Assembly (NCBI GenBank): GCA_002762785.1
Contig: PCXY01000003.1
Coordinates: 70,463-134,462 of the forward strand
DNA: 64,000 nt
Direction of reading: 5' to 3'
DNA from: Candidatus Woesearchaeota archaeon CG10_big_fil_rev_8_21_14_0_10_45_16
GTDB lineage: Archaea; Nanobdellota; Nanobdellia; Woesearchaeales; GW2011-AR9
Shown piece by piece: positions 1-29,579 of this stretch. The stretch's first letter is position 1. Every line of letters starts with the position of its first letter. The position numbers were made by a program, and so were the translations under genes. The notes beneath the pieces are model-generated. The model was not told the DNA's origin. It saw only the letters and a program-made list of their open reading frames with translations, and ran no database searches.

Positions 1-262
1 TAAAGGTACTGACTCAACAATGAGTGTTAGAGTTTTATCATCTGAATCTAAAATTCTATGTGTGTTTATTCCAGCATCATACAATCGTGCTGTAACATCT
101 CTTTCTCGGGAATATCTTTGGTGTGCTCTCATAATTTTTTTTCTCTCTAAAAAAGCCCAAAGAACTGGAAGAGAAAAACCACCATAGGATTTGGTAAATG
201 TACCATTATCTACATTTGTTGAGTTACTACTTACATATTTTCCTAGCCAATCAAGATTCATT
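1..262 (-). CDS. hypothetical protein, 3' part cut by window edge (start codon at 262-260)
   Basis: Open frame on the minus strand from the ATG at 262 to the window start. Not in the ORF track because it is partial. Confidence 0.3.
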
Positions 263-318
263 ATTTAGTTGGGGGAGGCATTTTCATTATAAAGTTTACC
301 TCTATTATTTGCCCGTAG

Positions 319-383
319 TGATTGAGCATAACGATGTTATGCTTCCTTAGGTTTATCCTCAGGTCGAGGCGTAGCCGAGAAGT
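319..383 (+). repeat. composite repeat copy E1 (palindrome CATAACGATGTTATG at 326-340, then hairpin, then a CGTAG motif); candidate attC-like site
   Basis: Exact 15-bp palindrome shared with five other copies. The downstream 7-bp hairpin is degenerate (CCTTAGG tttat CCTCAGG). It is followed by cgtagccgagaag and a T-run. Confidence 0.6.
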
Positions 384-555
384 TTTCAAGTTACCGTGCA
401 TAGTGCGTTGCTGTCAGAAGTCTTTAACACATTTAGTTCAGGCAAAAACAATTAGTGGTTTCATAGTAGTTAGGGGGCTCTCTCGTTTTATCAAAATTAT
501 TAGCAAATTATTTAAATTAGTTCGGTTTTTAGTATGTAAGAGGTATTCAAAGAAA

Positions 556-756
556 ATGGAAACTGACATATTAACCAAGATTCATGAAGATTTAGAGATA
601 TTAAAGCATGATATGGCTGAGATTAAAGAAGTTATCAAACTAGAACCTGAACTACGTGAAGAAGTGATTGAACAAGTTAAAGAAGCCAGAGAACGTATTG
701 TTAAGGGACAATTTGTTAGCAATGAAGATATTCTTAAAGAGTTTGATGTAGAATGA
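556..756 (+). CDS. putative antitoxin, partner of the RelE-like toxin
   Basis: Small acidic ORF whose stop overlaps the toxin start (ATGA). The ORF-track start at 322 would translate through repeat E1, so the internal Met at 556 is the more plausible start. Confidence 0.5.
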   Translation: METDILTKIHEDLEILKHDMAEIKEVIKLEPELREEVIEQVKEARERIVKGQFVSNEDILKEFDVE

Positions 757-1037
757 GCTATGAAGTTATTTGGGATGACAAAGCCCGAAATTTCTTAAGG
801 AAAATTCACAAAGATGATGCTAAAAGAATTGTAAAGAAAGTAAATAGCATTGTTGATGATCCAAGGCATTATCTTGAAACATTAGTTGAGATTAAATCCT
901 ACAAATTAAGAATAGGAGATTTTAGAGCATTAATTGATTTGGATGAAAATAAGCAAACTATTTCTGTCGTGCTGGTTGGACATAGAAAAGATGTTTACAA
1001 ATATGTTCAGAGAAGTGGTTTTAGAAGAAAGAATTGA
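753..1037 (+). CDS. relE: RelE/ParE-family toxin
   Basis: Contains KLRIGDFRALIDLDENKQTISVVLVGHRKDVY, typical of RelE/StbE toxins. Small and translationally coupled to an upstream small ORF. Confidence 0.7.
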   Translation: MSYEVIWDDKARNFLRKIHKDDAKRIVKKVNSIVDDPRHYLETLVEIKSYKLRIGDFRALIDLDENKQTISVVLVGHRKDVYKYVQRSGFRRKN

Positions 1038-1053
1038 TAATTAAAAGAAAAAA

Positions 1054-1416
1054 TTAAAGACTTTGGCGTTGTGTCAATCCTCTTCCTAAATGGTTATAAA
1101 AATTGTGTGAAGCAGATTTTTCTTCTGTTGGATCTGCAACAAGTTCAATACCAAGAGGATTAAAGACTTTTTCTTTCATCTCCCCATCAATTCTTTTGGA
1201 TGAACCAATTGGAACTATCTGATATACTTGTGCAATAACATAAGCTCCAACAACTCCGTCTGTTCCAAAAAGATTGTTGCCATTTTCATCATTATCAGAT
1301 TCATGATATGCTCTGTGGATTGTTTGTAATGTAGCCAATCTTGTTGGATCTTTTCTAATATCATCTAAACAAAATTCAGCTGCTTCTCTTGGTTTTAATT
1401 GTCTAATTTCTGGCAT
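1054..1416 (-). CDS. hypothetical protein
   Basis: 120-aa ORF convergent with the TA pair. No recognisable motif. Confidence 0.4.
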   Translation of the reverse strand: MPEIRQLKPREAAEFCLDDIRKDPTRLATLQTIHRAYHESDNDENGNNLFGTDGVVGAYVIAQVYQIVPIGSSKRIDGEMKEKVFNPLGIELVADPTEEKSASHNFYNHLGRGLTQRQSL

Positions 1417-1620
1417 TTTTTATCCTCCCTATCACCAATTGTGTGAAGATAAGAGCTACTTTAAAAATATTTGTGTTTAAAATGAGAGAGAGCCCCCATT
1501 TCAGTATTTTACATTTACTTTGTTTTTGCCGTTATAGAGTTTTACATTGTTAAAGACAGCAACGCATTAGTTTAGAGAATTTCCTACAGGATTGTTCTCG
1601 TCTAGGTAACTTGAAAATTA

Positions 1621-1676
1621 AGCATAACGATGTTATGTTTCAGGGGGTTTATCCCCCTGCAAGCGTAGCGTAGAGT
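1621..1676 (+). repeat. composite repeat copy E2 (palindrome at 1623-1637; hairpin CAGGGGGtttatCCCCCTG at 1641-1659)
   Basis: Same architecture and orientation as E1 and E3-E6, followed by caagcgtagcgtagag and a T-run. Confidence 0.65.
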
Positions 1677-1775
1677 TTTTAGATTTGAGAACAAAGATTA
1701 ATCACGAACAGAGTGAGACAAGACTTTAGGAAAAAAGCCCTAAGTTATTTAAAGTAGTTAGAGAAATGATATGTT

Positions 1776-2486
1776 ATGGTTGATAAATTATTGGCGAGAG
1801 CAACAAGTCCCACACAGTATGATTTAGATGATATCTCATGGAGTACTGAAAATGGTCTCCAATCTCCTACAAGAAAATTCTTTTTTGATTATTTATTAGG
1901 ATTTAAGGAGGAGTGGAGAGATTCTGATATTTTAGATATTGGTTGTGGGACAGGTTGGTTAATGCATTTGTTAAAGGAGAATGGAGCAAAATCTGTTGAG
2001 GGAATAGAACCATCTCATAAAAATGTTGCATATGCAGGTGATAATGGATTTGAAATTTATCATTGCGATTTAGATTCTTTTTCAGAAGATAAGAGATATG
2101 ATTTATTAATTTCCGTTATGACTTTTGGACACATAAATAATATTGATTCTTCTTTTGAGAAGATGGCAAGATTAGTTAGAGATGGGGGTGGTGTCCAGTT
2201 AATTGTTCCTGCATATGATTATTTTAAAAGAGAAAGAGATGGTTGTAAGGTTGAATTTGAAGAATTAAATCCAGAGGAATATGTTGTTCAAGTAACTCGT
2301 GAGCAAGGAACAATTGCTGAAATTGTGAGAAAAGTGGAGTTTTATGAACGTGCCGCTGAACGAGTTGGTTTAACAGTTGAAGATTCTATTCCGATGGTTC
2401 CAACAGATTCATTGATGAGAGATTCTCCGAGACATGCAACATTTAAAGGTCAGCCAATAACATATCTAGTGAGACTGCGAAAATAG
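1776..2486 (+). CDS. class I SAM-dependent methyltransferase
   Basis: Motif I LDIGCGTGWL and the overall Rossmann methyltransferase pattern. Confidence 0.7.
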   Translation: MVDKLLARATSPTQYDLDDISWSTENGLQSPTRKFFFDYLLGFKEEWRDSDILDIGCGTGWLMHLLKENGAKSVEGIEPSHKNVAYAGDNGFEIYHCDLDSFSEDKRYDLLISVMTFGHINNIDSSFEKMARLVRDGGGVQLIVPAYDYFKRERDGCKVEFEELNPEEYVVQVTREQGTIAEIVRKVEFYERAAERVGLTVEDSIPMVPTDSLMRDSPRHATFKGQPITYLVRLRK

Positions 2487-2519
2487 GGCTTTTTTCTACT
2501 TTCTCAAATCTAAAAATTA

Positions 2520-2583
2520 AACATAACGATGTTATGCTTCGGGAGGTTCACCCTCCCGCAAGGAAACGGAGTTTGAGCGAGTG
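2520..2583 (+). repeat. composite repeat copy E3 (palindrome at 2522-2536; hairpin CGGGAGGttcacCCTCCCG at 2541-2559)
   Basis: Same 15-bp palindrome. The hairpin stem differs from E2/E5/E6 but stays fully complementary, which is a compensatory change. Confidence 0.65.
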
Positions 2584-2690
2584 TTGAAAACCAGCCGTTA
2601 GGCTGTAAATGGTTTTTCTCGCTCATTCCCGGTTTCCGCAGAGTCTGACCTTGAAATTTTGGACATATTGGCTTTTCCTTGAAATAATTC

Positions 2691-2782
2691 CCACCACTGA
2701 CGCTGGTGAGCCGGGGGATGCCCCCTCCGGGGTGGCGAACGAGGACTCACGAAGGGAGTCCGACAGCCGTCAGTAGTGGTGG
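2691..2782 (+). other. GC-rich structured element (candidate small ncRNA) in an ORF-less interval between repeats E3 and E4
   Basis: The outer inverted repeat CCACCACTGACG / CGTCAGTAGTGGTGG encloses two internal hairpins, GGGGGatgCCCCC and GGACTCacgaagggGAGTCC. The surroundings are AT-rich and no ORF of 60 aa or more is present. Confidence 0.35.
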
Positions 2783-2830
2783 ACGCATAATTATTTGATG
2801 GAAAATAACCAAAATTTAATGGTCATATTA

Positions 2831-2888
2831 AGCATAACGATGTTATGTCCCCCAGACTTTACGTCTGGGTGCGAACGTAGTGAGCAAG
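2831..2888 (+). repeat. composite repeat copy E4 (palindrome at 2833-2847; hairpin CCCAGACtttacGTCTGGG at 2851-2869; cgaacgtagtgagcaag)
   Basis: Same palindrome. Third independent stem sequence, same 7-bp-stem plus 5-nt TT-loop geometry. Confidence 0.65.
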
Positions 2889-2958
2889 TATTTTCCAACC
2901 GTGCAGAGAACTAGCGCCATATTTCCTAATCACTTGTAGTTAAAGGGGACAATTTTTT

Positions 2959-3963
2959 TTAGTGCTTGACTATTTCTAATTTTGCTTTTTTATTTTTGGC
3001 AAGAAGTTTGGCAGTTCCACCAATAGGAAATGTAATCATTGGATTAGTATGGCCAAAATCAACATTAGCAATAACAGGTAAGTGGTTTAATTCTTTTTTT
3101 GTTTTGATTATTTTTGTAAGTAATTCTTTAGTCATCTTTGTGGCTTTTTGAAATCTTCCTATTACTATTCCCTGCACTTTTTTAAATTCTGGTTGATGGA
3201 TGATTGATTGGATATCTCTGTCAATAGTGGCGACATGTGCTTCATAATCGTCTTCTAAGAAAAGAATACTACCCTTGATATTTGGTATGTATTCAGTTCC
3301 ATGAAGTAATTGAAGAGTGCATAAATTCCCTCCAATTATTTTTCCAGAAGCTTCGCCCTCATTAATTATCCAGAAACCATCGTTTTTCATAAATTCACGA
3401 TTTTCCTGATCATTTGCCCAGAGATCATCACTCCATTCTTTAGAAGGCAAGACTTCAAATGATTCATCAGAAAATAAGCATTTTTTGAAATAGTCTAATG
3501 AATAGTCAAATCCTCTCTTTTCCCCAAATGAGAAAAAGTGCAGACCAGAATATGTTACTAACCCTGTTTTTGCATAGATTGCATTTGCAAGAGCAGTAAT
3601 ATCTGAATAGCCACAAAGTATTTTAGGATTATTTTTGATTAAGTCATAATCTAAATATCGTAAAAGTTGATTAGAATTAAACCCGCCAATTACCGTTATG
3701 ATTAATTTTATTGATTTATCTTTAAACGCTTCATGGAGGTCATCTACTCGTTTTTTAATTGTTGAGGAATTGAATTCATCTATTTCGTTTACGTGTTCCG
3801 AAAAACTGACTTTAAGTCCTAATTCTTCTAAGCGTTTAATGGCTATTTTTTGTAATTCTTCATTAAGCCAGGGCATAGCCAAACTTCTTGCTGGTGTTAT
3901 TATACGAACGCCATCGCCAGATTTTAACTTTGCTGGAATCATACTTGTTAATGAACGTAGCAA
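2959..3963 (-). CDS. LD-carboxypeptidase (peptidase S66, LdcA/MccF-like)
   Basis: CGYSDITAL matches the GYSD serine motif of S66 peptidases, and the length of about 330 aa fits. Confidence 0.75.
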   Translation of the reverse strand: MLRSLTSMIPAKLKSGDGVRIITPARSLAMPWLNEELQKIAIKRLEELGLKVSFSEHVNEIDEFNSSTIKKRVDDLHEAFKDKSIKLIITVIGGFNSNQLLRYLDYDLIKNNPKILCGYSDITALANAIYAKTGLVTYSGLHFFSFGEKRGFDYSLDYFKKCLFSDESFEVLPSKEWSDDLWANDQENREFMKNDGFWIINEGEASGKIIGGNLCTLQLLHGTEYIPNIKGSILFLEDDYEAHVATIDRDIQSIIHQPEFKKVQGIVIGRFQKATKMTKELLTKIIKTKKELNHLPVIANVDFGHTNPMITFPIGGTAKLLAKNKKAKLEIVKH

Positions 3964-4097
3964 ATATATAAAATGTGCGGTAAAAATAGAGATTTAGAAA
4001 TTGTCCCCTACATTTGGTTTTACATTGTGATTAAGGCGCTAGTTTAGATTGTTAAAGTTAGCGTAAGCGTAGAATTGTTCTAGGTTGGAAAATATTG

Positions 4098-4158
4098 GAC
4101 ATAACGATGTTATGTTTCAGGGGGTTTATCCCCCTGCAAGACACGTAGTGTCGCAGAG
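4098..4158 (+). repeat. composite repeat copy E5 (palindrome at 4100-4114; hairpin at 4118-4136; acacgtagtgtcgcagag)
   Basis: Identical 19-nt hairpin to E2 and E6. The 3' mini-hairpin is GACACgtaGTGTC. An orphan GTAGTG-CATAAC half-site lies at 4187-4201. Confidence 0.65.
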
Positions 4159-4201
4159 GTTTTTGTTGTTGTATCAACCAGTTTAACGCTGTAGTGCATA
4201 A

Positions 4202-5077
4202 CTAATAATCTACGTGAACATGACCGTTTGATGCTATAATGTAACCAGCATATCTAATGAGAACTGCTTTAATATCTACATTTAATTCATGGAAGAGGTA
4301 ACTTCCGATTGTATTTTCATGGCTGAAATAAATGTTGATTGTTTTTTCTGATAAAGCACTCATTAGATTTCTTATTTCATTAGAAGTAGCTTCAGATAAG
4401 GGAGATTCTGTAATCCATTTTCTGAAATGTTCACGTAAAATTCTCAACTTTCTCCTATTTAGTGGGCTCCCATCTTCTAGTGTTTCTTTTAGTTCTGGAT
4501 ACCTCTCTTTCATATCTTTAATTTTTGAACCGCTTCCAGATAATGAACTGTTTTGTCTTGGTCGTGTTAAACGAGCATTAGAGTTTCTTGATAAATAAGA
4601 ATAAGAAAGATCAGCAAACAATCTTGTTCTTTTGCTGTCTGAATTATAGAAATTTACAGTTACATTATCATAAGCTTCCAAAAATTGTTTGAGAAATTTA
4701 TTAAATCTCCAAACTTGAATCATTCCTCTCATAGTTAAATTTTTTCCAGGAAGTTTCCGATAAGATGCCATTAATGGCTCAGGATGACGAACTAAAATAT
4801 TTACACCAGAAGAATTAAAAATTTTAATTTCATTTGTTAATTTTTGATAAGTTTCTTTCGTTGTTGATTCTTGACAATTTTTGATTATATTCAACAATGA
4901 GTTTTTCTGCTCCGATGAGAGATGTTTCTCAAATTTTTTGTAATAACCTAAAAGAAACTTCTCTAAACTTTTCATTCCAGCTTCAATAATTTTGATATCT
5001 TTCTCTTTATGAGAATTATTTAAGAGTTTTCTTCCTGAAGATTTCGTCAACGCAAGGAATGAACTAATATTCATCAT
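4202..5077 (-). CDS. hypothetical protein (weak sulfotransferase-like features)
   Basis: 291-aa ORF. The VRHPEP..SY stretch is faintly sulfotransferase-like and is not relied on. Confidence 0.35.
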   Translation of the reverse strand: MMNISSFLALTKSSGRKLLNNSHKEKDIKIIEAGMKSLEKFLLGYYKKFEKHLSSEQKNSLLNIIKNCQESTTKETYQKLTNEIKIFNSSGVNILVRHPEPLMASYRKLPGKNLTMRGMIQVWRFNKFLKQFLEAYDNVTVNFYNSDSKRTRLFADLSYSYLSRNSNARLTRPRQNSSLSGSGSKIKDMKERYPELKETLEDGSPLNRRKLRILREHFRKWITESPLSEATSNEIRNLMSALSEKTINIYFSHENTIGSYLFHELNVDIKAVLIRYAGYIIASNGHVHVDY

Positions 5078-5112
5078 AAGCTTTAAATAGATCTTATTTT
5101 CTTATAAAACTT

Positions 5113-5673
5113 ATGTTAATTGTTATAGCTGGATTAATTGGAGCAGGAAAATCAACAATTGCTAGAGAACTTTCTAAAAAACTTTCTAAAAAACTTTCTA
5201 AAAAACTTTCTATTCCATTATATAGTATAGATGATGACAAAAAGAGAGTTTACAAGACTCACCCTCAATATGAACATTTCTTGAAGAATCACATCCCATT
5301 TCCGGATGAGACTAGAAAAAAAACTTTTGATGCTTCATTGAAGGGTCTTAGAAAGTTAGCAGAAGAGCATAAACATGCAATTGTTGAAGAAACATTTCAT
5401 AAAAAAATTTTAAGAGATCCATTTTTTGAAGAGGCTAAGAAAATTTTCGGGGGAATGATTTTGATTCTTGCAAAAGTAGATGATAAATTAGTGAAAGAGA
5501 GGTTAGATAAGAGAGAGAAAGATGAAGACCATATGGTTGGATATGGGATGTATCTATCATTTAAGAAACAGTGGGAGCCATTTGAGAAAGTTGATTATGA
5601 ATTTGTTAATGAAGGAAATTTTGATGAAAATATGAATCAGTTGGTGAATTTCCTGAGAGATAAGTTAGATTAG
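5113..5673 (+). CDS. P-loop NTPase, putative nucleotide/nucleoside kinase (AAA_33-like)
   Basis: Walker A GLIGAGKST at the N-terminus. Contains a [12 protein letters not shown] repeat encoded by a 12-bp tandem repeat at 5176-5215. Confidence 0.55.
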   Translation: MLIVIAGLIGAGKSTIARELSKKLSKKLSKKLSIPLYSIDDDKKRVYKTHPQYEHFLKNHIPFPDETRKKTFDASLKGLRKLAEEHKHAIVEETFHKKILRDPFFEEAKKIFGGMILILAKVDDKLVKERLDKREKDEDHMVGYGMYLSFKKQWEPFEKVDYEFVNEGNFDENMNQLVNFLRDKLD

Positions 5674-5750
5674 TTATTTCTTTATGCACGGAAGCGTTAG
5701 GTTTGGGATTTAGCGTTAGCGTAGAATCCATTTACAACAACAAAAACTTA

Positions 5751-5809
5751 AACATAACGATGTTATGCCTCAGGGGGTTTATCCCCCTGCAAGCACGTAG
5801 TGCGCAGAG
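5751..5809 (+). repeat. composite repeat copy E6 (palindrome at 5753-5767; hairpin at 5771-5789; caagcacgtagtgcgcagag)
   Basis: Same architecture. The 3' mini-hairpin is GCACgtaGTGC. Confidence 0.65.
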
Positions 5810-5955
5810 TTGGATTCTCACGTTTTTAGAGGGGGGCGTCAGTTATGACATTAGTTAGTTTTTAGAAAGGGGTCGCCAAATAAAATTTTTGTTACTTGTA
5901 AGTAAATTACAGAAACATTTAAATATTTGCATAGATTTCTTTTATAATACAATGA

Positions 5956-7041
5956 TTGGCAAAGAACGTCAGGAAAGGGATTATATTCCTAATTGGTCAA
6001 GATTATTCTAGCTATAGCTTTAAAGATTTAAGATATGCATCTTCTAATGAAAATTTACAGGACATCTATAATAGAGTTGAAGGCATAAAAGGAAATGGCT
6101 TGTTTGTAATTGGTGGATTTGATCAAGTTGCTTCTTTGTTAGGACATTCCGAACTAGATTTAGCACATTTAGTTGATAACAATCTTACTGCTGTTGAATA
6201 TGCTAGATTCCGCTTAGCACTGACACAAATTTGTGATACTAGATTTGAATATGTTGGTCGACTGATATCACGGAGAGTAAAAGGAATTTTTAATAATATC
6301 TCTTCTTTGAGAAATTTTTATTCTTCTAGAGAGACAGCAAGTGTTAGATTGTTCAACTTTTATAGAACACTATATGATGAACGCCTTACAAGGCTAAGAA
6401 AATTACTTGATTTAAGTCTGTGTTCTGATACAATAGAAGAAAAAATGCTTTATTTTGGGCAATTTAGGATGGAATTTGAAAAAGAAGCAGGGAATATAAG
6501 GGGTATAGAATGGAGAAGAGAATCTCTGGAAGAAGATTTCTGTAGATATGAACAATTTTTAGAAGAAAGAGAAATCGCTTATGATTCTCTGTTTGCTGAA
6601 GAAACAGCTAAATTGCTTTGTGAAAATTTTGGAATTAGTAAAAATCTACTAGAAGAAACAATCTTGAGCGAATATTTTGAAAGTAAATTGAACTGGGGTG
6701 AAAATGATATGGTCGCTGGAAGGAGATTTTGGAGTTTTATTGAATCTAATAAGGACCATTGGCTTTCATCAGACGCCTATTTCGAGAGAGTAAAATCAAT
6801 GTACAGAGAAGAAAGAATTAAATTTTCTCAGCTAGACTTGACCAATGAAGATATCTCGCTTAATCTTTTTGGAGATTTGTCTTTAGTTTATTTATCTAAT
6901 ATTCATGAATGGGTAAAAGTTGAATTAGGAGAACTAATTAAATGTTTATGTTTAAATGAGTTAGGTGTTAATGAACACACAATTTTTCTTTACACAACAA
7001 CAAAAGGAAAGGGTAAATGTAAAATGGCGACCCCGTTATAG
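5956..7041 (+). CDS. hypothetical protein
   Basis: 361-aa ORF. A TATA-like element (cttttataata) sits about 10 bp upstream of the ATG, consistent with an archaeal leaderless transcript. Confidence 0.45.
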   Translation: MAKNVRKGIIFLIGQDYSSYSFKDLRYASSNENLQDIYNRVEGIKGNGLFVIGGFDQVASLLGHSELDLAHLVDNNLTAVEYARFRLALTQICDTRFEYVGRLISRRVKGIFNNISSLRNFYSSRETASVRLFNFYRTLYDERLTRLRKLLDLSLCSDTIEEKMLYFGQFRMEFEKEAGNIRGIEWRRESLEEDFCRYEQFLEEREIAYDSLFAEETAKLLCENFGISKNLLEETILSEYFESKLNWGENDMVAGRRFWSFIESNKDHWLSSDAYFERVKSMYREERIKFSQLDLTNEDISLNLFGDLSLVYLSNIHEWVKVELGELIKCLCLNELGVNEHTIFLYTTTKGKGKCKMATPL

Positions 7042-7123
7042 TTTTAGTTTTTATCTTCTCATAGAGAAGCGTTTTATACATAGCCCCACTCGTTTTTTTT
7101 AGTTTACGTGAGAATCCAATTAG

Positions 7124-7217
7124 GCATAACTCTTTATATGCTGAAATGGGCTGTAATGGGGGAATTTTGGGGATACAAGGGCTGTCCTGAAGCCCATAAA
7201 ACAATAAAGAGTTATGT
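7124..7217 (+). repeat. attC-like long imperfect hairpin E7 (gCATAAC-TCTTTAT ... ATAAAGA-GTTATGt)
   Basis: The 13-bp terminal inverted repeat CATAACTCTTTAT / ATAAAGAGTTATG starts with R''-like GCATAAC and ends with R'-like GTTATGT. An inner stem ATGGGCT/AGCCCAT is separated from it by unpaired bases, as in folded attC sites. Confidence 0.55.
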
Positions 7218-7417
7218 GCCACTATAACCATCATAGTAAGAAATGACTTAGAATGACCTAGAATGTCCTGAAAAAATCTAAATTCACTTTCTAAATTCAC
7301 CTAAAAAAACTTAACCACTTAACATCTTAACAACTTAAACTGACCTGAAATAACATCGATGGACGTATCAGCTTCAACATGGCTGATCTATGATCCCTCT
7401 GCACTGGTCAGCTTCTA
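7218..7417 (+). promoter_or_regulatory. attI-like / promoter region upstream of the recombinase gene, rich in short direct repeats
   Basis: TTAAC repeats with 8-bp period (four copies, 7311-7340). CTAAATTCAC occurs twice (7278-7300). TAGAATG occurs twice (7248-7266). The region sits between the last attC-like site and the recombinase start. Confidence 0.35.
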
Positions 7418-8446
7418 TTGTCCAGTGTGAGAGCGCTTCTACCTGCGAAATTTGGCAGGTTCAGCGGTTGGAGGATGAGCACTGGACACACTGGTCAGGT
7501 CCGGGTAAGATATATAAATCATAAAAGTCATGATAATGACATGGATATTAACATGGATGTTGCTGGCCTTATCACAAAAGAGGGATGGCGTCTGGGAAGA
7601 AGCCCCAGGACTATCAAGACCTACATCTACGTTGTAGAGAAATTCTTAAGGACGTATCATAAAGAGCCGCATCAGGTTACCAAACGGGACATTGAGAACC
7701 ATCTTCTTCGGCTGCAAGAAAGGAACAGCTCAGGCAATACGATGAATGTCCATCTCAACGCTCTTAAGTTCTTTTATGAAAGGGTCCTTAAGAAAAAGCT
7801 GACGGTCAATATCGAGTTTGCTAAAGTGCGGAAGAGTTTGCCCACGGTCTTGAGCAAAGAAGAGACTTCTGCCTTGTTTTCTGCCATCTCTAACCCTAAA
7901 CAGCAGTTGATGGTCAAGCTGCTCTATGCCAGCGGGATGCGGGTCAGTGAACTTGCTTCCTTGCGTGTGCGTGATCTTGAATTCAACAATAACTATGGAT
8001 GGGTCAGGAACGGCAAAGGTGGTAAGGATAGATTATTCATTATCGCCAAAAAGTTGAAGAACGAGATCCTGGCCAGGATATCTCAAAACAAACTGCATTC
8101 TGCTGACTGGCTATTTCCTGGGTATAACAGCAACCACATCAGCCCCAGTTCCATCCGCACTATCATCAAGACCGCTTCCCTGAAAGCTGGTATCAGCAAA
8201 AATGTTCATCCCCACACTTTGCGCCACTCTTTCGCCACCCATCTGATCGAAAATGGCTACGCGGTGACGGAAGTGCAGCCTCTCCTTGGCCATGGTTCGA
8301 TCAACACGACCATGATCTATCTTCATATCGCATCACCACAATTGTTAAAAGTAGAAAGTCCTCTTGATTCGTTAGGGACAGCAGCGAGAGAAGTAAGAAT
8401 AGTAAAGACGGTGGGGGTACGATCTGATCCTCTGGATGCTGCCTGA
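7418..8446 (+). CDS. tyrosine site-specific recombinase, integron-integrase-like (XerC/XerD/IntI family)
   Basis: Conserved blocks match IntI closely: LLYASGMRVSELASLRVRDL, GKGGKDR, HPHTLRHSFATHL, LLGHGSINTTMIYLHI and a C-terminal SPLDSL. The true start may be Met42 or Met46, at 7541 or 7553. Confidence 0.8.
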   Translation: MSSVRALLPAKFGRFSGWRMSTGHTGQVRVRYINHKSHDNDMDINMDVAGLITKEGWRLGRSPRTIKTYIYVVEKFLRTYHKEPHQVTKRDIENHLLRLQERNSSGNTMNVHLNALKFFYERVLKKKLTVNIEFAKVRKSLPTVLSKEETSALFSAISNPKQQLMVKLLYASGMRVSELASLRVRDLEFNNNYGWVRNGKGGKDRLFIIAKKLKNEILARISQNKLHSADWLFPGYNSNHISPSSIRTIIKTASLKAGISKNVHPHTLRHSFATHLIENGYAVTEVQPLLGHGSINTTMIYLHIASPQLLKVESPLDSLGTAAREVRIVKTVGVRSDPLDAA

Positions 8447-8463: not shown

Positions 8464-9687
8464 ATGAACATCCGCCGCGTCAGATACAAAGACATTGAAC
8501 AGGTTCCTCAGCTTCGCATAAACAAACGTTTCAAGCAGGATTTCCAAGGCTCGGCGCCTGCTCCTTTTGTCGGCCGTTATGGTTATCCTAATGTAAACTT
8601 AGGTATTCTCAGCCCGCAATTTGTCGGTGACGTCTCTGAATATGATTCTCCCCGGTTATGGAGCAAGGAAAGCTTCCAGATCGGTCAGGTGGCCAGCATC
8701 CGTTACGGCCTGGTGAATTCCCGTACTAAATGGAGCATCAAAGATCTCTATAAAGATCAGCTGCAATCCGGAAAACGCTTCTTTGAAACCTGTCAGGAAG
8801 TTGGCATGGCCACTAAAGCCGCAGAGATCGAGGTGGCGCTCAAGAAACCGCCTAAGCTGGACTTCAAGCCAGAGAAAGAGATCATCCCCTACGGGCCTGC
8901 TTCTGAGATCCTCAAAGCCAGGATAGCCGGCAGTCCGCGAGTTGATACCAGGGTAGAGAAAGTGGTCTATGATACTGATCTGAAAGCTGCTTCTGGGGTT
9001 GTCAATCTTTATAAGAAAGGATTTGAAGAGAATTACCTGACTCGGCTGCTGTCAGTAGGAACTTTAGGATTGCAAGAAAGAAGAAAGCTGGTGCCGACCA
9101 GATGGAGTATCACCGCCGTCGATGACACCATCGGTAAAGAACTGATAAATGAGGTCAAACAGTTTCCTGTGGGGGAGTATCGCGCTTATTTCGGCGGCGG
9201 CTGGGGCAATTTCTATCTTCTGTTGTTCTTTCCGGAAGTATGGAGCTATGAACTGTTTGAGACGTATCTTCACCCTTCCGGAACCGCAGCTACCAATCCC
9301 TGGTCAAAACAAGGTTATATGTATTCGACCGATCATGAAAGCTATGTTGGTCGCAAGAATTACGCTGAAGAGACCGCCGGCGGCTATTATGCCTGCCGTA
9401 TCTCCGTAGCAGAGAAGATGAAAGAACTTAAGCGGCAAGGATCGTGCCTGGCCTTACGTTTCATCACCCCTGAATATAACATCCCTCTAGGGGTCTGGGT
9501 CTGCCGGCAGGCTACCCGCAAGGCTCTCGAGAAACAGCCTCTCGTGTTTGATTCAGAAGAACTGATGATGGCCTTTGCCAGATCGTTGATAGAACGGAAG
9601 TTTGGTTTCAAGCTTGATTTTCTGCTGAAAGAGTCGCAGCTGCTGAAACAGAAGAAAGAACAGACCAAGCTGGCGGAGTTTGTCTGA
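8464..9687 (+). CDS. conserved hypothetical protein, possibly Nre-family (DUF650/DUF651-like)
   Basis: 407-aa ORF. The Nre assignment is from memory of the family and is unverified. Confidence 0.3.
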   Translation: MNIRRVRYKDIEQVPQLRINKRFKQDFQGSAPAPFVGRYGYPNVNLGILSPQFVGDVSEYDSPRLWSKESFQIGQVASIRYGLVNSRTKWSIKDLYKDQLQSGKRFFETCQEVGMATKAAEIEVALKKPPKLDFKPEKEIIPYGPASEILKARIAGSPRVDTRVEKVVYDTDLKAASGVVNLYKKGFEENYLTRLLSVGTLGLQERRKLVPTRWSITAVDDTIGKELINEVKQFPVGEYRAYFGGGWGNFYLLLFFPEVWSYELFETYLHPSGTAATNPWSKQGYMYSTDHESYVGRKNYAEETAGGYYACRISVAEKMKELKRQGSCLALRFITPEYNIPLGVWVCRQATRKALEKQPLVFDSEELMMAFARSLIERKFGFKLDFLLKESQLLKQKKEQTKLAEFV

Positions 9688-29340: not shown

Positions 29341-29441
29341 GTGGGGGTAGCAAAGCCTGGTCAAATGCGCAGGACTTAAGACAACTTTGAAAGATATCCT
29401 GTCCTTTAGTAGGTTCGAGGGTTCAAATCCCTTCCCCCACA
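29341..29441 (+). tRNA. tRNA-Leu (anticodon UAA) with a 15-nt intron after position 37
   Basis: Acceptor stem GTGGGGG/CCCCCAC. Anticodon stem CAGGA/TCCTG. Loop is CTTAAG, then the intron, then A. Long variable arm. T-arm GAGGG-TTCAAAT-CCCTT. A TATA box lies upstream. Confidence 0.8.
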
Positions 29442-29493: not shown

Positions 29494-29579
29494 GCCCCTG
29501 TGGCCTAGCGGTATGGCGTTACCTTGGTATACATCATACAAAGAGGTAAAGGTCCCGAGTTCAAGTCTCGGCAGGGGCT
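29494..29579 (+). tRNA. tRNA-Thr (anticodon GGU) with a 14-nt intron after position 37
   Basis: Acceptor stem GCCCCTG/CAGGGGC. Anticodon stem TTACC/GGTAA. Loop is TTGGTA, then the intron, then A. T-arm CCGAG-TTCAAGT-CTCGG. Confidence 0.8.

What the first reader, a model, noticed from the sequence alone, without database searches (positions are those of the whole stretch)
319..5809. Six copies of a composite 58-bp element: 15-bp palindrome plus a hairpin whose stem covaries between copies
Each copy begins with the exact palindrome CATAAC-GAT-GTTATG, at 326, 1623, 2522, 2833, 4100 and 5753. Its halves resemble integron R'' (RYYYAAC) and R' (GTTRRRY) boxes, with a mismatch to consensus at the middle position in each half. 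After a 3-nt pyrimidine spacer comes a 7-bp-stem, 5-nt-loop hairpin. The stem sequence differs between copies but stays complementary: CAGGGGG/CCCCCTG three times, CGGGAGG/CCTCCCG, CCCAGAC/GTCTGGG, and CCTTAGG/CCTcAGG. The loop always starts TT. Next is CAAG, a second mini-hairpin around CGTAG(T)G (for example GACACgtaGTGTC and GCACgtaGTGC), a ...(c)AGAG end, and usually a T-run. These compensatory stem changes indicate selection on the secondary structure, of folded ssDNA or of RNA, rather than on the sequence. All six copies are on the same strand although the flanking genes are not. This is not a canonical attC, in which R'' and R' are 50-130 nt apart. It could be a compact recombination site, or a transcribed structured module such as a 3' end or terminator.
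Basis: seen in the sequence. Interest (0 to 1): 0.8.

Follow-up and report, generated by a model that had tools for sequence, protein, structure and literature searches.

The report
Gene-cassette junction sites beside archaeal xerA
The six repeats are the joints between small mobile gene cassettes stacked at the chromosome's dif recombination site, next to the XerA recombinase gene of a DPANN archaeon; this is an integron-like gene-capture system that I could not find described anywhere.

Summary
There are six exact CATAACGATGTTATG copies (0.15 expected by chance), each followed by a covarying 7-bp hairpin. A covariance model built only from other genomes finds exactly these six in the 64 kb.

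The palindrome is not a unit. Its left half ends one cassette and its right half starts the next. The bases flanking each half pair with the far end of the same cassette (72/117 cassettes perfect), not with the adjacent half (4/117).

Joining a cassette's own ends in silico gives a conserved four-way junction:
- P1: a cassette-specific inverted repeat plus AATT/AGTT with an invariant T·G.
- P2: the two arms.
- P4: tandem G·A plus a GNA triloop.

The array has at least 13 sites in a longer contig. It lies between the two halves of a dif-like site (ATTnnnCWTAA-N6-ATAWG...), 160-420 nt upstream of xerA. In seven independent DPANN xerA loci, sites lie only upstream of xerA and on its strand.

Best reading: XerA/dif-dependent, integron-like cassettes, probably recombined as folded single-stranded DNA. 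The locus fails the defining tests for a canonical integron (no IntI domain, no attC architecture). I found no prior description. Nothing here is experimentally tested.

The parts
1..331 (+). 3' part of an upstream cassette (minus-strand ORF 1-261); the array continues off the left edge of the window
   Evidence: L214, a same-population contig (99.8% identical), extends 9.2 kb further left and carries 7 more sites.
320..384 (+). Site 1: linker GATT (320-323), left arm GAGCATAA (324-331, end of the previous cassette), central CGATG (332-336), right arm TTATGCTT (337-344), P3 hairpin (345-363), P4 hairpin (364-380), AGTT (381-384)
   Evidence: (52.9 bits).
332..1627 (+). Cassette 1 (1296 nt): DUF2683-like antitoxin candidate plus ParE toxin (556-1037, +) and a 120-aa ORF (1054-1416, -). 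P1 arms are 385-395 TTCAAGTTACC and 1605-1615 GGTAACTTGAA; imperfect pairing extends about 70-100 nt further
1616..1677 (+). Site 2: AATT, AAGCATAA | CGATG | TTATGTTT, P3 1641-1659, P4 1660-1673, AGTT
   Evidence: (65.5 bits).
1628..2526 (+). Cassette 2 (899 nt): SAM-dependent methyltransferase (1776-2486, +). P1 arms are 1678-1691 and 2501-2514 (14 bp perfect)
   Evidence: A 93%-identical second copy of this cassette lies further left in the same array (L214 6907-7825).
2515..2645 (+). Site 3: AATT, AAACATAA | CGATG | TTATGCTT, P3 2540-2558, an unusually long P4 hairpin 2559-2641, AGTC
   Evidence: (60.7 bits).
2527..2837 (+). Cassette 3 (311 nt), non-coding: one long hairpin with a G+C-rich apex (2691-2782)
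   Evidence: (I11). No Rfam match.
2826..2890 (+). Site 4: TATT, AAGCATAA | CGATG | TTATGTCC, P3 2851-2869, P4 2870-2886 (TGC-GA-AC-GTA-GT-GA-GCA), AGTA
   Evidence: (61.2 bits).
2838..4104 (+). Cassette 4 (1267 nt): LD-carboxypeptidase (S66) on the minus strand (2959-3963). P1 arms are 2891-2900 and 4083-4092
4093..4160 (+). Site 5: TATT, GGACATAA | CGATG | TTATGTTT, P3 4118-4136, P4 4137-4156, AGGT
   Evidence: (67.2 bits).
4105..5757 (+). Cassette 5 (1653 nt): 291-aa ORF (4202-5077, -) and a P-loop kinase (5113-5673, +). P1 arms are 4161-4173 and 5733-5745 (13 bp perfect)
5746..5811 (+). Site 6: ACTT, AAACATAA | CGATG | TTATGCCT, P3 5771-5789, P4 5790-5807, AGTT
   Evidence: (61.6 bits).
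5758..7129 (+). Cassette 6 (1372 nt): DUF7790 protein (5956-7041, +). P1 arms are 5812-5823 GGATTCTCACGT and 7106-7117 ACGTGAGAATCC. It ends with AATT-AGG-CATAA, whose AGG pairs with the CCT at 5768-5770
7119..7146 (+). Terminal dif-like site: ATTAGGCATAA (left arm, supplied by cassette 6), CTCTTT (central region), ATATGCTGAAA (chromosomal right arm)
   Evidence: Equivalent sites lie 160-420 nt upstream of xerA in L217, L007, L218/L094, L091, L219, L220 and L005.
7541..8446 (+). xerA: 301-aa tyrosine recombinase, a XerA equivalog
   Evidence: (NF040815 236 bits, cut-off 220).

Best explanation
The six copies are the boundaries between mobile gene cassettes inserted in tandem into the chromosomal dif site, which lies just upstream of xerA in a DPANN (Woesearchaeota/Nanoarchaeota-type) archaeon.

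Anatomy, read directly from the sequences. A cassette runs from CGATG-TTAWGnnn-P3-P4-AGTT-IR_L, through its cargo (0-3 genes, either strand), to IR_R-AATT-n'n'n'CWTAA. The crossover falls at CWTAA|C. What looks like a palindrome is therefore the 3' arm of one cassette abutting the 5' arm of the next. Each cassette's two ends are complementary. When they are joined or paired they form a four-way junction:
- P1: IR_R/IR_L continued by AATT/AGTT with an invariant T·G.
- P2: the two arms, 9 bp.
- P3: 7-bp stem with a TTYAY loop.
- P4: outer stem, tandem G·A, inner stem and a GNA triloop.
In this fold the full 11-nt Xer-type arm ATTnnnCWTAA is double-stranded. Eight bp come from the right arm and three from AGT, and P3 and P4 bulge out between them.

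Mechanism, inferred. The host XerA recombines these sites with dif and with each other, as host Xer does for IMEX elements. The substrate is most likely the folded + strand, as for integron attC bottom strands and CTX-phage attP(+). One strand is cleaved after ...TAA and exchanged, and replication completes the event. A new cassette then lands next to the chromosomal right arm of dif, nearest xerA. The original left arm is pushed to the far end of the array.
For: 1. The site family is real and local.
- Six exact copies against 0.15 expected.
- A model built from other genomes finds only these six in the 64 kb.

2. The crossover is in the centre of the palindrome.
- The 5 bases flanking the right half pair perfectly with those flanking the next site's left half in 34/51 and 72/117 cassettes. 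The figures for the adjacent half are 0/49 and 4/117; permutation gives a mean of 5.5 and a maximum of 17.
- In the window all six pairs fit: ctt/aag, ttt/aaa, ctt/aag, tcc/gga, ttt/aaa, cct/agg.
- A duplicated cassette in L005 loses identity immediately after its left half-site.

3. The array is bounded by the two halves of a dif-like site.
- Right end: cassette arm + CTCTTT + ATATGCTGAAA at 7119-7146.
- Left end: AATTAAGCTTAA|CGATGTT directly after mscL in L214.
- Sites of the form ATTnnnCWTAA-N6-ATAWG lie 160-420 nt upstream of xerA in 8 loci.

4. The array is linked to xerA.
- In 7 independent xerA loci (XerA 46-67% identical) every model hit is upstream of xerA and on its strand. There are none in the 10 kb downstream.
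- The protein passes the XerA equivalog cut-off.

5. The four-way junction is supported.
- On 90 reconstructed junctions, 95.1% of cells pair against 62% in shuffles and at most 47% when partners are slid.
- The covariation score is 0.82 against 0.18.
- 26 of 32 pairs show changes on both sides.
- These include arm and linker pairs that were not used to select the data.
- As DNA, reconstructed junctions fold at -23.7 to -31.8 kcal/mol (z -6.1 to -9.1). The genomic array context gives -13.4 to -17.8 kcal/mol (z -2.1 to -3.5).

6. There are hints that one particular strand folds.
- T·G is present in 86/90 linker pairs.
- Non-Watson-Crick positions in P3 are G·T 25 against A·C 11, p = 0.03.
- P4 uses C-GNA-G triloops and tandem G·A. 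From my own knowledge, these are classic very stable DNA mini-hairpin motifs.

7. The region looks foreign and the cassettes look mobile.
- G+C is 32% against about 45% for the rest of the window.
- The cargo is accessory: toxin-antitoxin pairs, methyltransferase, kinase, Fic, PIN.
- Cassette ends are shared between genomes while the cargo differs.
- Cassettes are duplicated within arrays.
- Assemblies break at the array.
Against: - Nothing is experimental. No excised circle or alternative array order was recovered for this population.
- The one contig that puts cassette 1 next to a different xerA (L217) could be an assembly chimera through a shared cassette end.
- If the arms are aligned by sequence, cassette sites have a 5-nt central region (CGATG) against 6 nt in the chromosomal dif. 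That is short for a tyrosine recombinase.
- In a fully folded array each arm duplex would have to serve two neighbouring sites, a geometry with no precedent.
- Characterised XerA (Pyrococcus, Thermoplasma) acts on double-stranded dif without strand preference (PMC5357621).
- The strand-bias statistic is modest and not corrected for relatedness.
- The function of P3 and P4 is unknown.
- Cassettes that share a P1 arm type carry different P3/P4, which the model does not explain.
- Most related loci are short MAG contigs, so arrays elsewhere in those genomes cannot be excluded.
Confidence: 0.6

Rival explanations
1. Classical double-stranded Xer recombination, as for VGJ-type IMEX elements or Acinetobacter dif modules. 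XerA recombines duplex cassette sites with duplex dif. The end-to-end complementarity and the hairpins serve something else, such as transcription termination at both cassette ends, a replication or packaging signal of the free form, or binding of an accessory protein.
For: - The same dif and xerA linkage as the best explanation.
- Known XerA enzymes work on duplex dif (PMC5357621).
- Many IR_L arms begin with T-runs and IR_R arms end with A-runs. From general knowledge, these could act as archaeal oligo-T terminators in both directions.
Against: - A protein reading duplex DNA gives no reason for variable arm positions (W and nnn) to covary with the far end of the same cassette.
- It gives no reason for a T·G to be conserved opposite AATT.
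- It gives no reason for the outer 3 bp of the 11-bp arm to be restored only in the folded form.
- P3 and P4 covariation also requires a single-stranded state at some stage.
Confidence: 0.2
2. Single-strand transposition or excision by an unlinked enzyme, such as an IS200/IS605-type HUH transposase or another nuclease. This enzyme would recognise the hairpins and insert 3' of ...TAAC. Under this reading XerA and dif are only the preferred target or a neighbour.
For: - All sites are strand-specific.
- Sites are defined by structure and vary in sequence.
- Each insertion recreates a target for the next.
Against: - No such gene is conserved next to the arrays. The only conserved neighbour is xerA.
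- The arms match the Xer-type dif arms, and the array is bracketed by the two halves of a dif-like site.
- I did not scan the whole window for HUH genes, so this is not excluded.
Confidence: 0.08
3. The conserved structure acts in RNA. The array is transcribed and each element is a processing site, terminator or small structured RNA. The DNA-level cassette order is a by-product.
For: - Covarying helices and G·U-compatible positions on the + strand.
- T-runs follow the element.
Against: - P1 and P2 pair across 0.3-4 kb that contains genes on both strands (74 against 39).
- There is no Rfam match.
- The DNA-level evidence (half-sites at both array ends, duplicated cassettes, shared ends with different cargo) needs DNA recombination in any case.
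- No bulge-helix-bulge motif is seen at the boundaries.
Confidence: 0.05
4. A canonical integron: IntI plus attI plus attC cassettes.
For: - A cassette array lies next to a tyrosine recombinase gene whose 5' end faces the array.
- The half-sites resemble RYYYAAC and GTTRRRY.
- NCBI's name for the XerA family includes 'integron integrase'.
Against: - The recombinase scores 217 bits against the integron-integrase model, below its 265-bit cut-off. The match is split where the IntI-specific domain lies, and the same split is seen against VchIntIA, 2a3v.
- The R''-like and R'-like boxes are 3 nt apart and belong to different cassettes.
- There is no single 55-140-nt imperfect hairpin at each cassette's 3' end.
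- Published archaeal integrons have canonical attC sites and IntI with the additional domain (PMC9668308).
Confidence: 0.02

Closest known systems
Integrons (IntI, attI, attC gene cassettes), including sedentary chromosomal integrons and the archaeal integrons of Ghaly et al. 2022 (PMC9668308)
   Same: - A tandem array of small, mostly promoter-poor accessory cassettes, including toxin-antitoxin pairs, next to a tyrosine recombinase gene whose 5' end faces the array.
- Sites are defined by secondary structure with free sequence covariation.
- The arm consensus resembles RYYYAAC/GTTRRRY, with the inferred cut after AA^C.
- The start of each cassette pairs with a box near its own end.
- The likely substrate is folded single-stranded DNA.
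- The newest cassette is predicted to sit nearest the recombinase gene.
   Different: - The recombinase is the XerA orthologue and lacks the IntI-specific domain.
- The insertion point is a dif-like site.
- The site is a four-way junction built from both ends of the cassette, with the crossover at the tip of the arm helix. An attC is instead a single hairpin at the 3' end with the crossover at its base.
- An 11-nt core, TAACGATGTTA, is invariant.
- A third of cassettes have their main ORF on the opposite strand.
IMEX: integrative mobile elements exploiting Xer (CTX phage, VGJ phage, TLC phage, gonococcal genetic island)
   Same: - The cassettes encode no recombinase.
- They are inserted at dif and flanked by dif-like hybrid sites.
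- Tandem arrays build up at dif.
- CTX phage uses a folded single-stranded attP(+) and a single strand exchange.
   Different: - Known IMEX are bacterial and are phages, plasmids or islands that can replicate or transfer. Here the units are 0.08-4 kb cassettes, some of them non-coding.
- Every unit carries the same elaborate four-helix end structure.
- No archaeal IMEX is mentioned in the archaeal tyrosine recombinase review (PMC8371274).
Acinetobacter plasmid pdif (dif) modules
   Same: Small accessory modules (resistance genes, toxin-antitoxin pairs) bounded by Xer-type sites and thought to move by the host Xer.
   Different: - pdif sites flank modules in alternating inverted orientation on plasmids (my own knowledge).
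- They are plain 28-bp duplex sites without hairpins.
- Here all sites are direct repeats on a chromosome and are structure-dependent.
Linked xer/dif modules: XerS/difSL, XerH/difH, and some archaeal xerA/dif pairs
   Same: A single Xer recombinase gene with its dif site immediately upstream (PMC5357621).
   Different: Those modules are described only for chromosome dimer resolution, without cassette arrays.
IS200/IS605 elements and their non-autonomous derivatives
   Same: Strand-specific single-strand DNA elements recognised through hairpins, which insert 3' of a short target without duplicating it.
   Different: - No HUH transposase is linked to the arrays.
- The ends pair with each other rather than forming separate left-end and right-end hairpins.
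- The arms and target are Xer/dif-like.

Membership tests
Integron | Integron integrase carrying the IntI-specific additional domain around patch III | tested here: not met
   TIGR02249 scores 217 bits, below its 265-bit cut-off, and matches in 2 stretches with the best one ending at residue 191. The VchIntIA structure 2a3v also matches in 2 stretches, broken at about residue 183. The XerA equivalog NF040815 passes (236 > 220), and P. abyssi XerA 4a8e matches in one stretch, 19-269.
Integron | attC: one imperfect hairpin of about 55-140 nt at the 3' end of each cassette, ordered R''-L''...L'-R' | tested here: not met
   The R''-like and R'-like boxes are 3 nt apart. Each pairs with the other end of its own cassette, 0.08-4 kb away (72/117), not with its neighbour (4/117). 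The two hairpins lie outside the boxes.
Integron | Cassette array adjacent to the recombinase gene, ending in a distinct insertion site (attI) | tested here: met
   The array ends at 7119-7146, 395 nt upstream of xerA, in a hybrid site whose right part is chromosomal. The same layout is found in 7 loci.
Integron | Recombination of the folded bottom strand, with cleavage at AA^C | not testable with these tools
   The junctions place the crossover at ...CWTAA|C, and the fold is supported by covariation. Neither strand use nor cleavage can be shown in silico.
IMEX (Xer-exploiting integrative elements) | The element encodes no recombinase of its own | tested here: met
   Pfam finds no recombinase in any of the window's cassette ORFs.
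IMEX (Xer-exploiting integrative elements) | Integrated at the host dif and flanked by dif or dif-like sites | tested here: met
   The left boundary is AATTAAGCTTAA|CGATG (L214 1366-1380). The right boundary is ATTAGGCATAA CTCTTT ATATGCTGAAA. Both fit the 11-6-11 imperfect palindrome found upstream of xerA in 8 loci. That this site is the functional dif is itself an inference.
IMEX (Xer-exploiting integrative elements) | Integration and excision depend on the host Xer | not testable with these tools
   Only the association can be shown: sites lie upstream of xerA and on its strand in 7 of 7 loci, with none downstream.
Acinetobacter-type dif modules | Modules bounded by Xer sites in alternating inverted orientation, on plasmids | tested here: not met
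   All sites are in direct orientation on the chromosome.
REP/BIME-like or terminator repeat dispersed through the genome | Copies scattered in intergenic regions genome-wide | tested here: not met
   A covariance search of the whole 64 kb with filters off finds six hits, all within 317-5789. The next best hit scores 8.2 bits.
CRISPR array | Identical repeats of 25-40 nt separated by spacers of 25-70 nt | tested here: not met
   Spacing is 311-1653 nt and contains genes, and only 15 nt are identical between copies.
Any Rfam RNA family | A match to a curated covariance model | tested here: not met
   Nothing in 250-7450 at E <= 1 apart from one spurious lncRNA hit. At gathering threshold the window has only two tRNAs.
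IS200/IS605-type single-strand transposons | A Y1 HUH transposase (in cis or in the genome) and separate subterminal hairpins at each end | not tested
   No such gene was seen among the annotated neighbours of 8 loci. The whole window and whole genomes were not scanned.

The most novel reading that the evidence does not exclude
DPANN archaea carry a previously unrecognised, third kind of gene-capture platform. The housekeeping chromosome-dimer resolvase XerA and its dif site double as an integron-like cassette acquisition system. Cassettes are recognised not by sequence but by a four-way-junction fold of single-stranded DNA, assembled from both cassette ends. This would be a living example of the Xer-to-integron transition, and a natural structure-specific recombination site with a new architecture.
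Probability: 0.45. Interest if true: 0.92.

Novelty: new variant of a known kind. Interest (0 to 1): 0.85.

Why it matters
- **Origin of integrons.** Integron integrases are thought to derive from Xer-like recombinases. A system in which an unmodified XerA orthologue and dif host an array of structure-defined cassettes would show how that step can happen.
- **Gene exchange in DPANN.** It would extend Xer exploitation (IMEX) to archaea. It would also explain how tiny DPANN genomes exchange accessory, toxin-antitoxin and defence-type genes.
- **Reach of the family.** The element family was found in more than 170 stretches of DPANN genomes and metagenomes.
- **Assembly and cargo.** Assemblies break at these arrays, so the cargo is probably under-sampled.
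- **Recombinase biology and tools.** The four-way-junction site has covarying arms, an invariant T·G, and GNA-triloop and tandem-GA hairpins. It is a new natural design for structure-specific recombination and could be used for single-strand DNA integration tools.

Tried and rejected
- **tRNA-fragment att duplications.** Rejected. ARAGORN and Rfam find no tRNA at the sites, and covariation between copies rules out repeated duplication of a single att site.
- **Self-cleaving ribozyme or another known RNA.** No Rfam match at E <= 1.
- **Viral or plasmid origin.** The family pattern hit only two IMG/VR contigs. Both lack the hairpin and are chance matches.
- **attC-like pair CATAACTCTTTAT (7125-7137) / ATAAAGAGTTATG (7204-7216).** I first read this as an attC-like hairpin around the terminal site. 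It is not conserved in L094 or L007, so I dropped it in favour of the 11-6-11 dif-like reading.
- **Population variants of the last cassette.** A metagenome scan with the window's own dif flank found nothing.
- **Same-population contigs L001-L004.** They are identical to the window and only show that assemblies break in the array.
- **L217.** It seemed to show cassette 1 (99.2% identical) next to a xerA only 61% identical. The mismatches cluster in the last 60 nt, so I cannot exclude a chimera through a shared cassette end. I do not count it as proof of transfer.
- **Excised circles among contigs.** Sites whose two adjacent arms pair occur 4 times in 117, no more than chance at about 5.5.
- **GC skew.** It is positive across the whole window. 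It neither confirms that dif lies at a terminus nor reliably identifies the lagging-strand template, so I did not use it.

Full report
**The observation.** CATAACGATGTTATG occurs six times in the window, at 327, 1623, 2522, 2833, 4100 and 5753, all on the + strand. Shuffles give 0.15 matches on average, even allowing two mismatches. 'CAAG' and '...AGAG' hold in four of the six copies. The first coordinate is 327, not 326.

**The organism.**
- Rfam finds two intron-containing tRNA genes that the bacterial tRNA finder misses.
- The neighbouring core genes are archaeal: SecE, Spt5-NGN, aEF-1alpha.
- The adjacent recombinase has hundreds of 55-69% identical relatives labelled Nanoarchaeota or Woesearchaeota.
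- The first 7 kb has 32% G+C against about 45% for the rest of the window.
- Its genes are accessory: a ParE toxin with a small partner, a SAM methyltransferase, an LD-carboxypeptidase, a P-loop kinase, DUF7790 and two unknowns, on both strands.

Every segment between two copies is bracketed by an inverted repeat.
- Uninterrupted pairing runs for 5-14 bp in the six window cassettes.
- One arm begins right after the element's AG-T end.
- The other arm ends 9 nt before the next TAAC.
- Imperfect pairing extends for 70-100 nt beyond that.

The repeat that follows copy 6 (5812-5823) has its partner at 7106-7117. That partner is followed by AATT-AGG-CATAA and then by unrelated sequence. This is a seventh, half site.

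The 3 nt after each GTTATG are the reverse complement of the 3 nt before the next CATAAC: ctt/aag, ttt/aaa, ctt/aag, tcc/gga, ttt/aaa, cct/agg.

**The same rule holds across related loci.** I used about 200 related loci from a genome scan and a metagenome scan. About 70 of the 86 genome stretches are from DPANN MAGs. The rest are bacterial matches without the hairpin, roughly the number I estimated by hand for chance.
- The five bases flanking the right half pair perfectly with the next site's left flank in 72 of 117 non-redundant cassettes.
- They pair with the adjacent left flank in only 4 of 117. Permutation gives a mean of 5.5 and a maximum of 17 (smaller set).
- The variable position inside the 'palindrome' (CATAAC...GTTATG or CTTAAC...GTTAAG) follows the same rule.

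The palindrome is therefore a junction of two independently inherited cassette ends, and the crossover lies in the invariant centre.

A duplicated cassette in another genome (L005) loses identity exactly after its left half-site.

**The fold.** Joining each cassette's own ends in silico gives a four-way junction in five of the six window cassettes with RNA parameters. DNA parameters gave it in all five that were folded; cassette 3 is too long for the tool.
- DNA energies are -23.7 to -31.8 kcal/mol (z -6.1 to -9.1).
- The same length of genomic array context gives -13.4 to -17.8 kcal/mol (z -2.1 to -3.5).

On 90 reconstructed junctions from many genomes:

| Measure | Observed | Shuffled | Partners slid |
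|---|---|---|---|
| Cells forming a standard pair | 95.1% | 62% | at most 47% |
| Covariation score | 0.82 | 0.18 | at most 0.19 |

26 of the 32 pairs show changes on both sides.

Two caveats apply. The outer 12 bp of P1 were located by complementarity, and P3 was pre-filtered. The arm pairs and the linker pairs were not, and they still covary. Examples are GC 40 / AU 36 / CG 10 at one arm position, and linker/partner pairs AATT/AGTT, TATT/AGTA, ACTT/AGGT, GATT/AGTC and CATT/AGTG.

One linker position is T·G in 86 of 90 junctions.

P4 has a recurrent design:
- a covarying outer stem;
- a tandem G·A;
- a 2-3-bp inner stem;
- a C-GNA-G triloop, as in GCGTAGC, ACGTAGT and GCGAAGC.

From my own knowledge, these are classic hyper-stable DNA mini-hairpin motifs.

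In P3, among 245 copies chosen without regard to the hairpin, 172 are perfect. The non-Watson-Crick positions are G·T 25 against A·C 11, p = 0.03, uncorrected for relatedness.

**The recombinase and the target.**
- The 301-aa protein at 7541-8446 passes NCBI's XerA equivalog model (236 bits, cut-off 220).
- It fails the integron-integrase model (217 bits, cut-off 265). That match is split where the IntI-specific domain lies.
- Its best solved relative is P. abyssi XerA, matched in one stretch. V. cholerae IntI4 matches in two.
- The array's right end reads ATTAGGCATAA CTCTTT ATATGCTGAAA (7119-7146). This is an 11-6-11 imperfect palindrome of the dif type.
- Sites of the form ATTnnnCWTAA-N6-ATAWGnnnAAn lie 160-420 nt upstream of xerA in seven further loci.
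- Linked xerA/dif modules are known in some archaea (PMC5357621).
- A longer contig from the same population (L214) shows that the array continues 9 kb to the left, with at least 13 sites.
- In L214 the array starts right after mscL with AATTAAGCTTAA|CGATGTT, a chromosomal left arm joined to a cassette start.

The array thus sits between the two halves of a dif-like site. This is what successive insertions at CWTAA|C would produce.

In seven independent xerA loci (XerA 46-67% identical), every covariance-model hit is upstream of xerA and on its strand. None lies in the 10 kb downstream. In the window itself the model, which was built without window sequences, finds only the six sites.

**Mechanism.**

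*Shown:*
- cassette units with complementary ends;
- a crossover in the invariant core;
- an array bracketed by dif halves next to xerA.

*Inferred:*
- XerA catalyses the recombination.
- The substrate is folded single-stranded DNA of the + strand.

The argument for a folded substrate rests on three features that duplex recognition by a protein does not explain: the covariation of variable arm bases with the far end of the cassette, the conserved T·G, and the P3/P4 covariation.

In the fold the whole 11-nt Xer-type arm ATTnnnCWTAA becomes duplex. Eight bp come from the right arm and three from AGT beyond P4, and P3 and P4 bulge out between them. In duplex form the cassette's right arm matches only 8 of the 11 positions.

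A single cleavage after ...TAA, followed by strand exchange and replication, would reproduce every junction seen. This is how integron attC sites and CTX-phage attP(+) are handled.

*Weak points:*
- The central region is 5 nt.
- In a folded array each arm duplex would be shared by two neighbouring sites.
- There is no experimental support.
- Characterised XerA enzymes act on duplex dif.

**Comparison with known systems.**
- It works like an integron, but it fails two defining integron features: the IntI domain and the attC architecture.
- It fits the IMEX definition at the level that sequence can test. Known IMEX, however, are bacterial phages, plasmids or islands, not arrays of structured mini-cassettes.
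- The archaeal tyrosine recombinase review does not mention IMEX.
- Published archaeal integrons have canonical attC sites and IntI (PMC9668308).
- Nine literature searches, including one for the core sequence itself, found no description. That library is incomplete, so prior description cannot be excluded.

**Unexplained.**
- Cassettes that share a P1 arm type, and the 100-170 nt at each end, can carry different cargo.
- They can also carry different P3/P4 hairpins. There are 4-5 different P3 stems among the 5-6 members of each of the largest P1 clusters.
- So some further exchange or rapid turnover acts inside the end structure.

Noticed in passing
window 2527-2837, especially 2691-2782; L005 about 5790-5880: Cassette 3 has no ORF. 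It consists of an 83-nt P4 hairpin plus a long hairpin whose G+C-rich apex (CCACCACTGACGCTGGTGAGCCGGGGGATGCCCCC...) is about 80% conserved in a cassette of another genome. It looks like a structured RNA or DNA module carried as cargo. There is no Rfam match.
   Followed up: partly
window 5166-5213: A 12-nt tandem repeat (AAAACTTTCTAA, about 4 copies) lies inside the P-loop kinase ORF and encodes repeated LSKK. The same cassette in the same-population contig L214 is 12 nt shorter (1641 against 1653 nt). That difference is the size of one repeat unit, but I did not locate it by alignment.
   Followed up: partly
window 29341-29441 and 29494-29579: Two tRNA genes of 101 and 86 nt are found by Rfam but not by ARAGORN in bacterial mode. 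They probably contain introns, which is the first clue that the window is archaeal.
   Followed up: no
window 7240-7269 and 7480-7499: Between the dif-like site and xerA there are three tandem 10-mers (GAAATGACTT AGAATGACCT AGAATGTCCT). There is also a doubled CACTGGNCA motif about 40-60 nt before the xerA start. CCACTGGTCAA-like motifs recur at the same place in L005, L007, L008, L219, L220 and L221. They may be regulatory or accessory binding sites.
   Followed up: partly
window 7125-7137 and 7204-7216: CATAACTCTTTAT and ATAAAGAGTTATG form a perfect 13-bp inverted repeat with 66 nt between the arms, overlapping the dif-like site. It gives an attC-like spacing of CATAAC...GTTATG. It is not conserved in L094 or L007.
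   Followed up: partly
window 7350-7362 (minus strand reads CCATCGATGTTAT); L007 about 2380-2395: An inverted, partial copy of the cassette core (CGATGTTAT) lies about 220 nt downstream of the dif-like site, and a similar one is seen in L007. Its significance is unknown.
   Followed up: no
L217 (Logan SRR6240789_318302) 1-901 against window 728-1628: Cassette 1 at 99.2% identity directly abuts a dif-like site (ATTAAACATAA CTCAAT ATATGCTGATT) and a xerA that is only 61% identical in protein. This is either recent horizontal transfer of the cassette or an assembly chimera through a shared cassette end; the mismatches cluster in the last 60 nt.
   Followed up: partly
window cassette 1 and 6 ends; L068, L078, L010, L036, L039, L060, L199 and others: The terminal 100-170 nt of a cassette are 84-95% identical between genomes while the cargo differs. 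Cassettes with the same P1 arms also carry different P3/P4 hairpins. This points to modular reshuffling inside the end structure.
   Followed up: partly
L048 (rc coordinates 5305-5385 and 7222-7302): Two identical 81-nt 'empty' cassettes, consisting of end structure only with no cargo, sit at two places in one array with different neighbours.
   Followed up: no
window 8464-9687; L218, L221: A gene with Nre_N/Nre_C domains directly follows xerA here and in two other DPANN loci, but not in all.
   Followed up: no
Genome-contig loci L011, L012, L014, L049, L060 and others: Many MAGs that carry the element are titled 'uncultured Methanosarcinales archaeon' (binchicken assemblies). The one I checked, the assembly that holds L005, has a XerA whose relatives are labelled Nanoarchaeota or Woesearchaeota and a DPANN-like array, so at least that taxonomic label looks unreliable. 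A few are labelled Saccharibacteria or Patescibacteria, probably through mis-binning.
   Followed up: no
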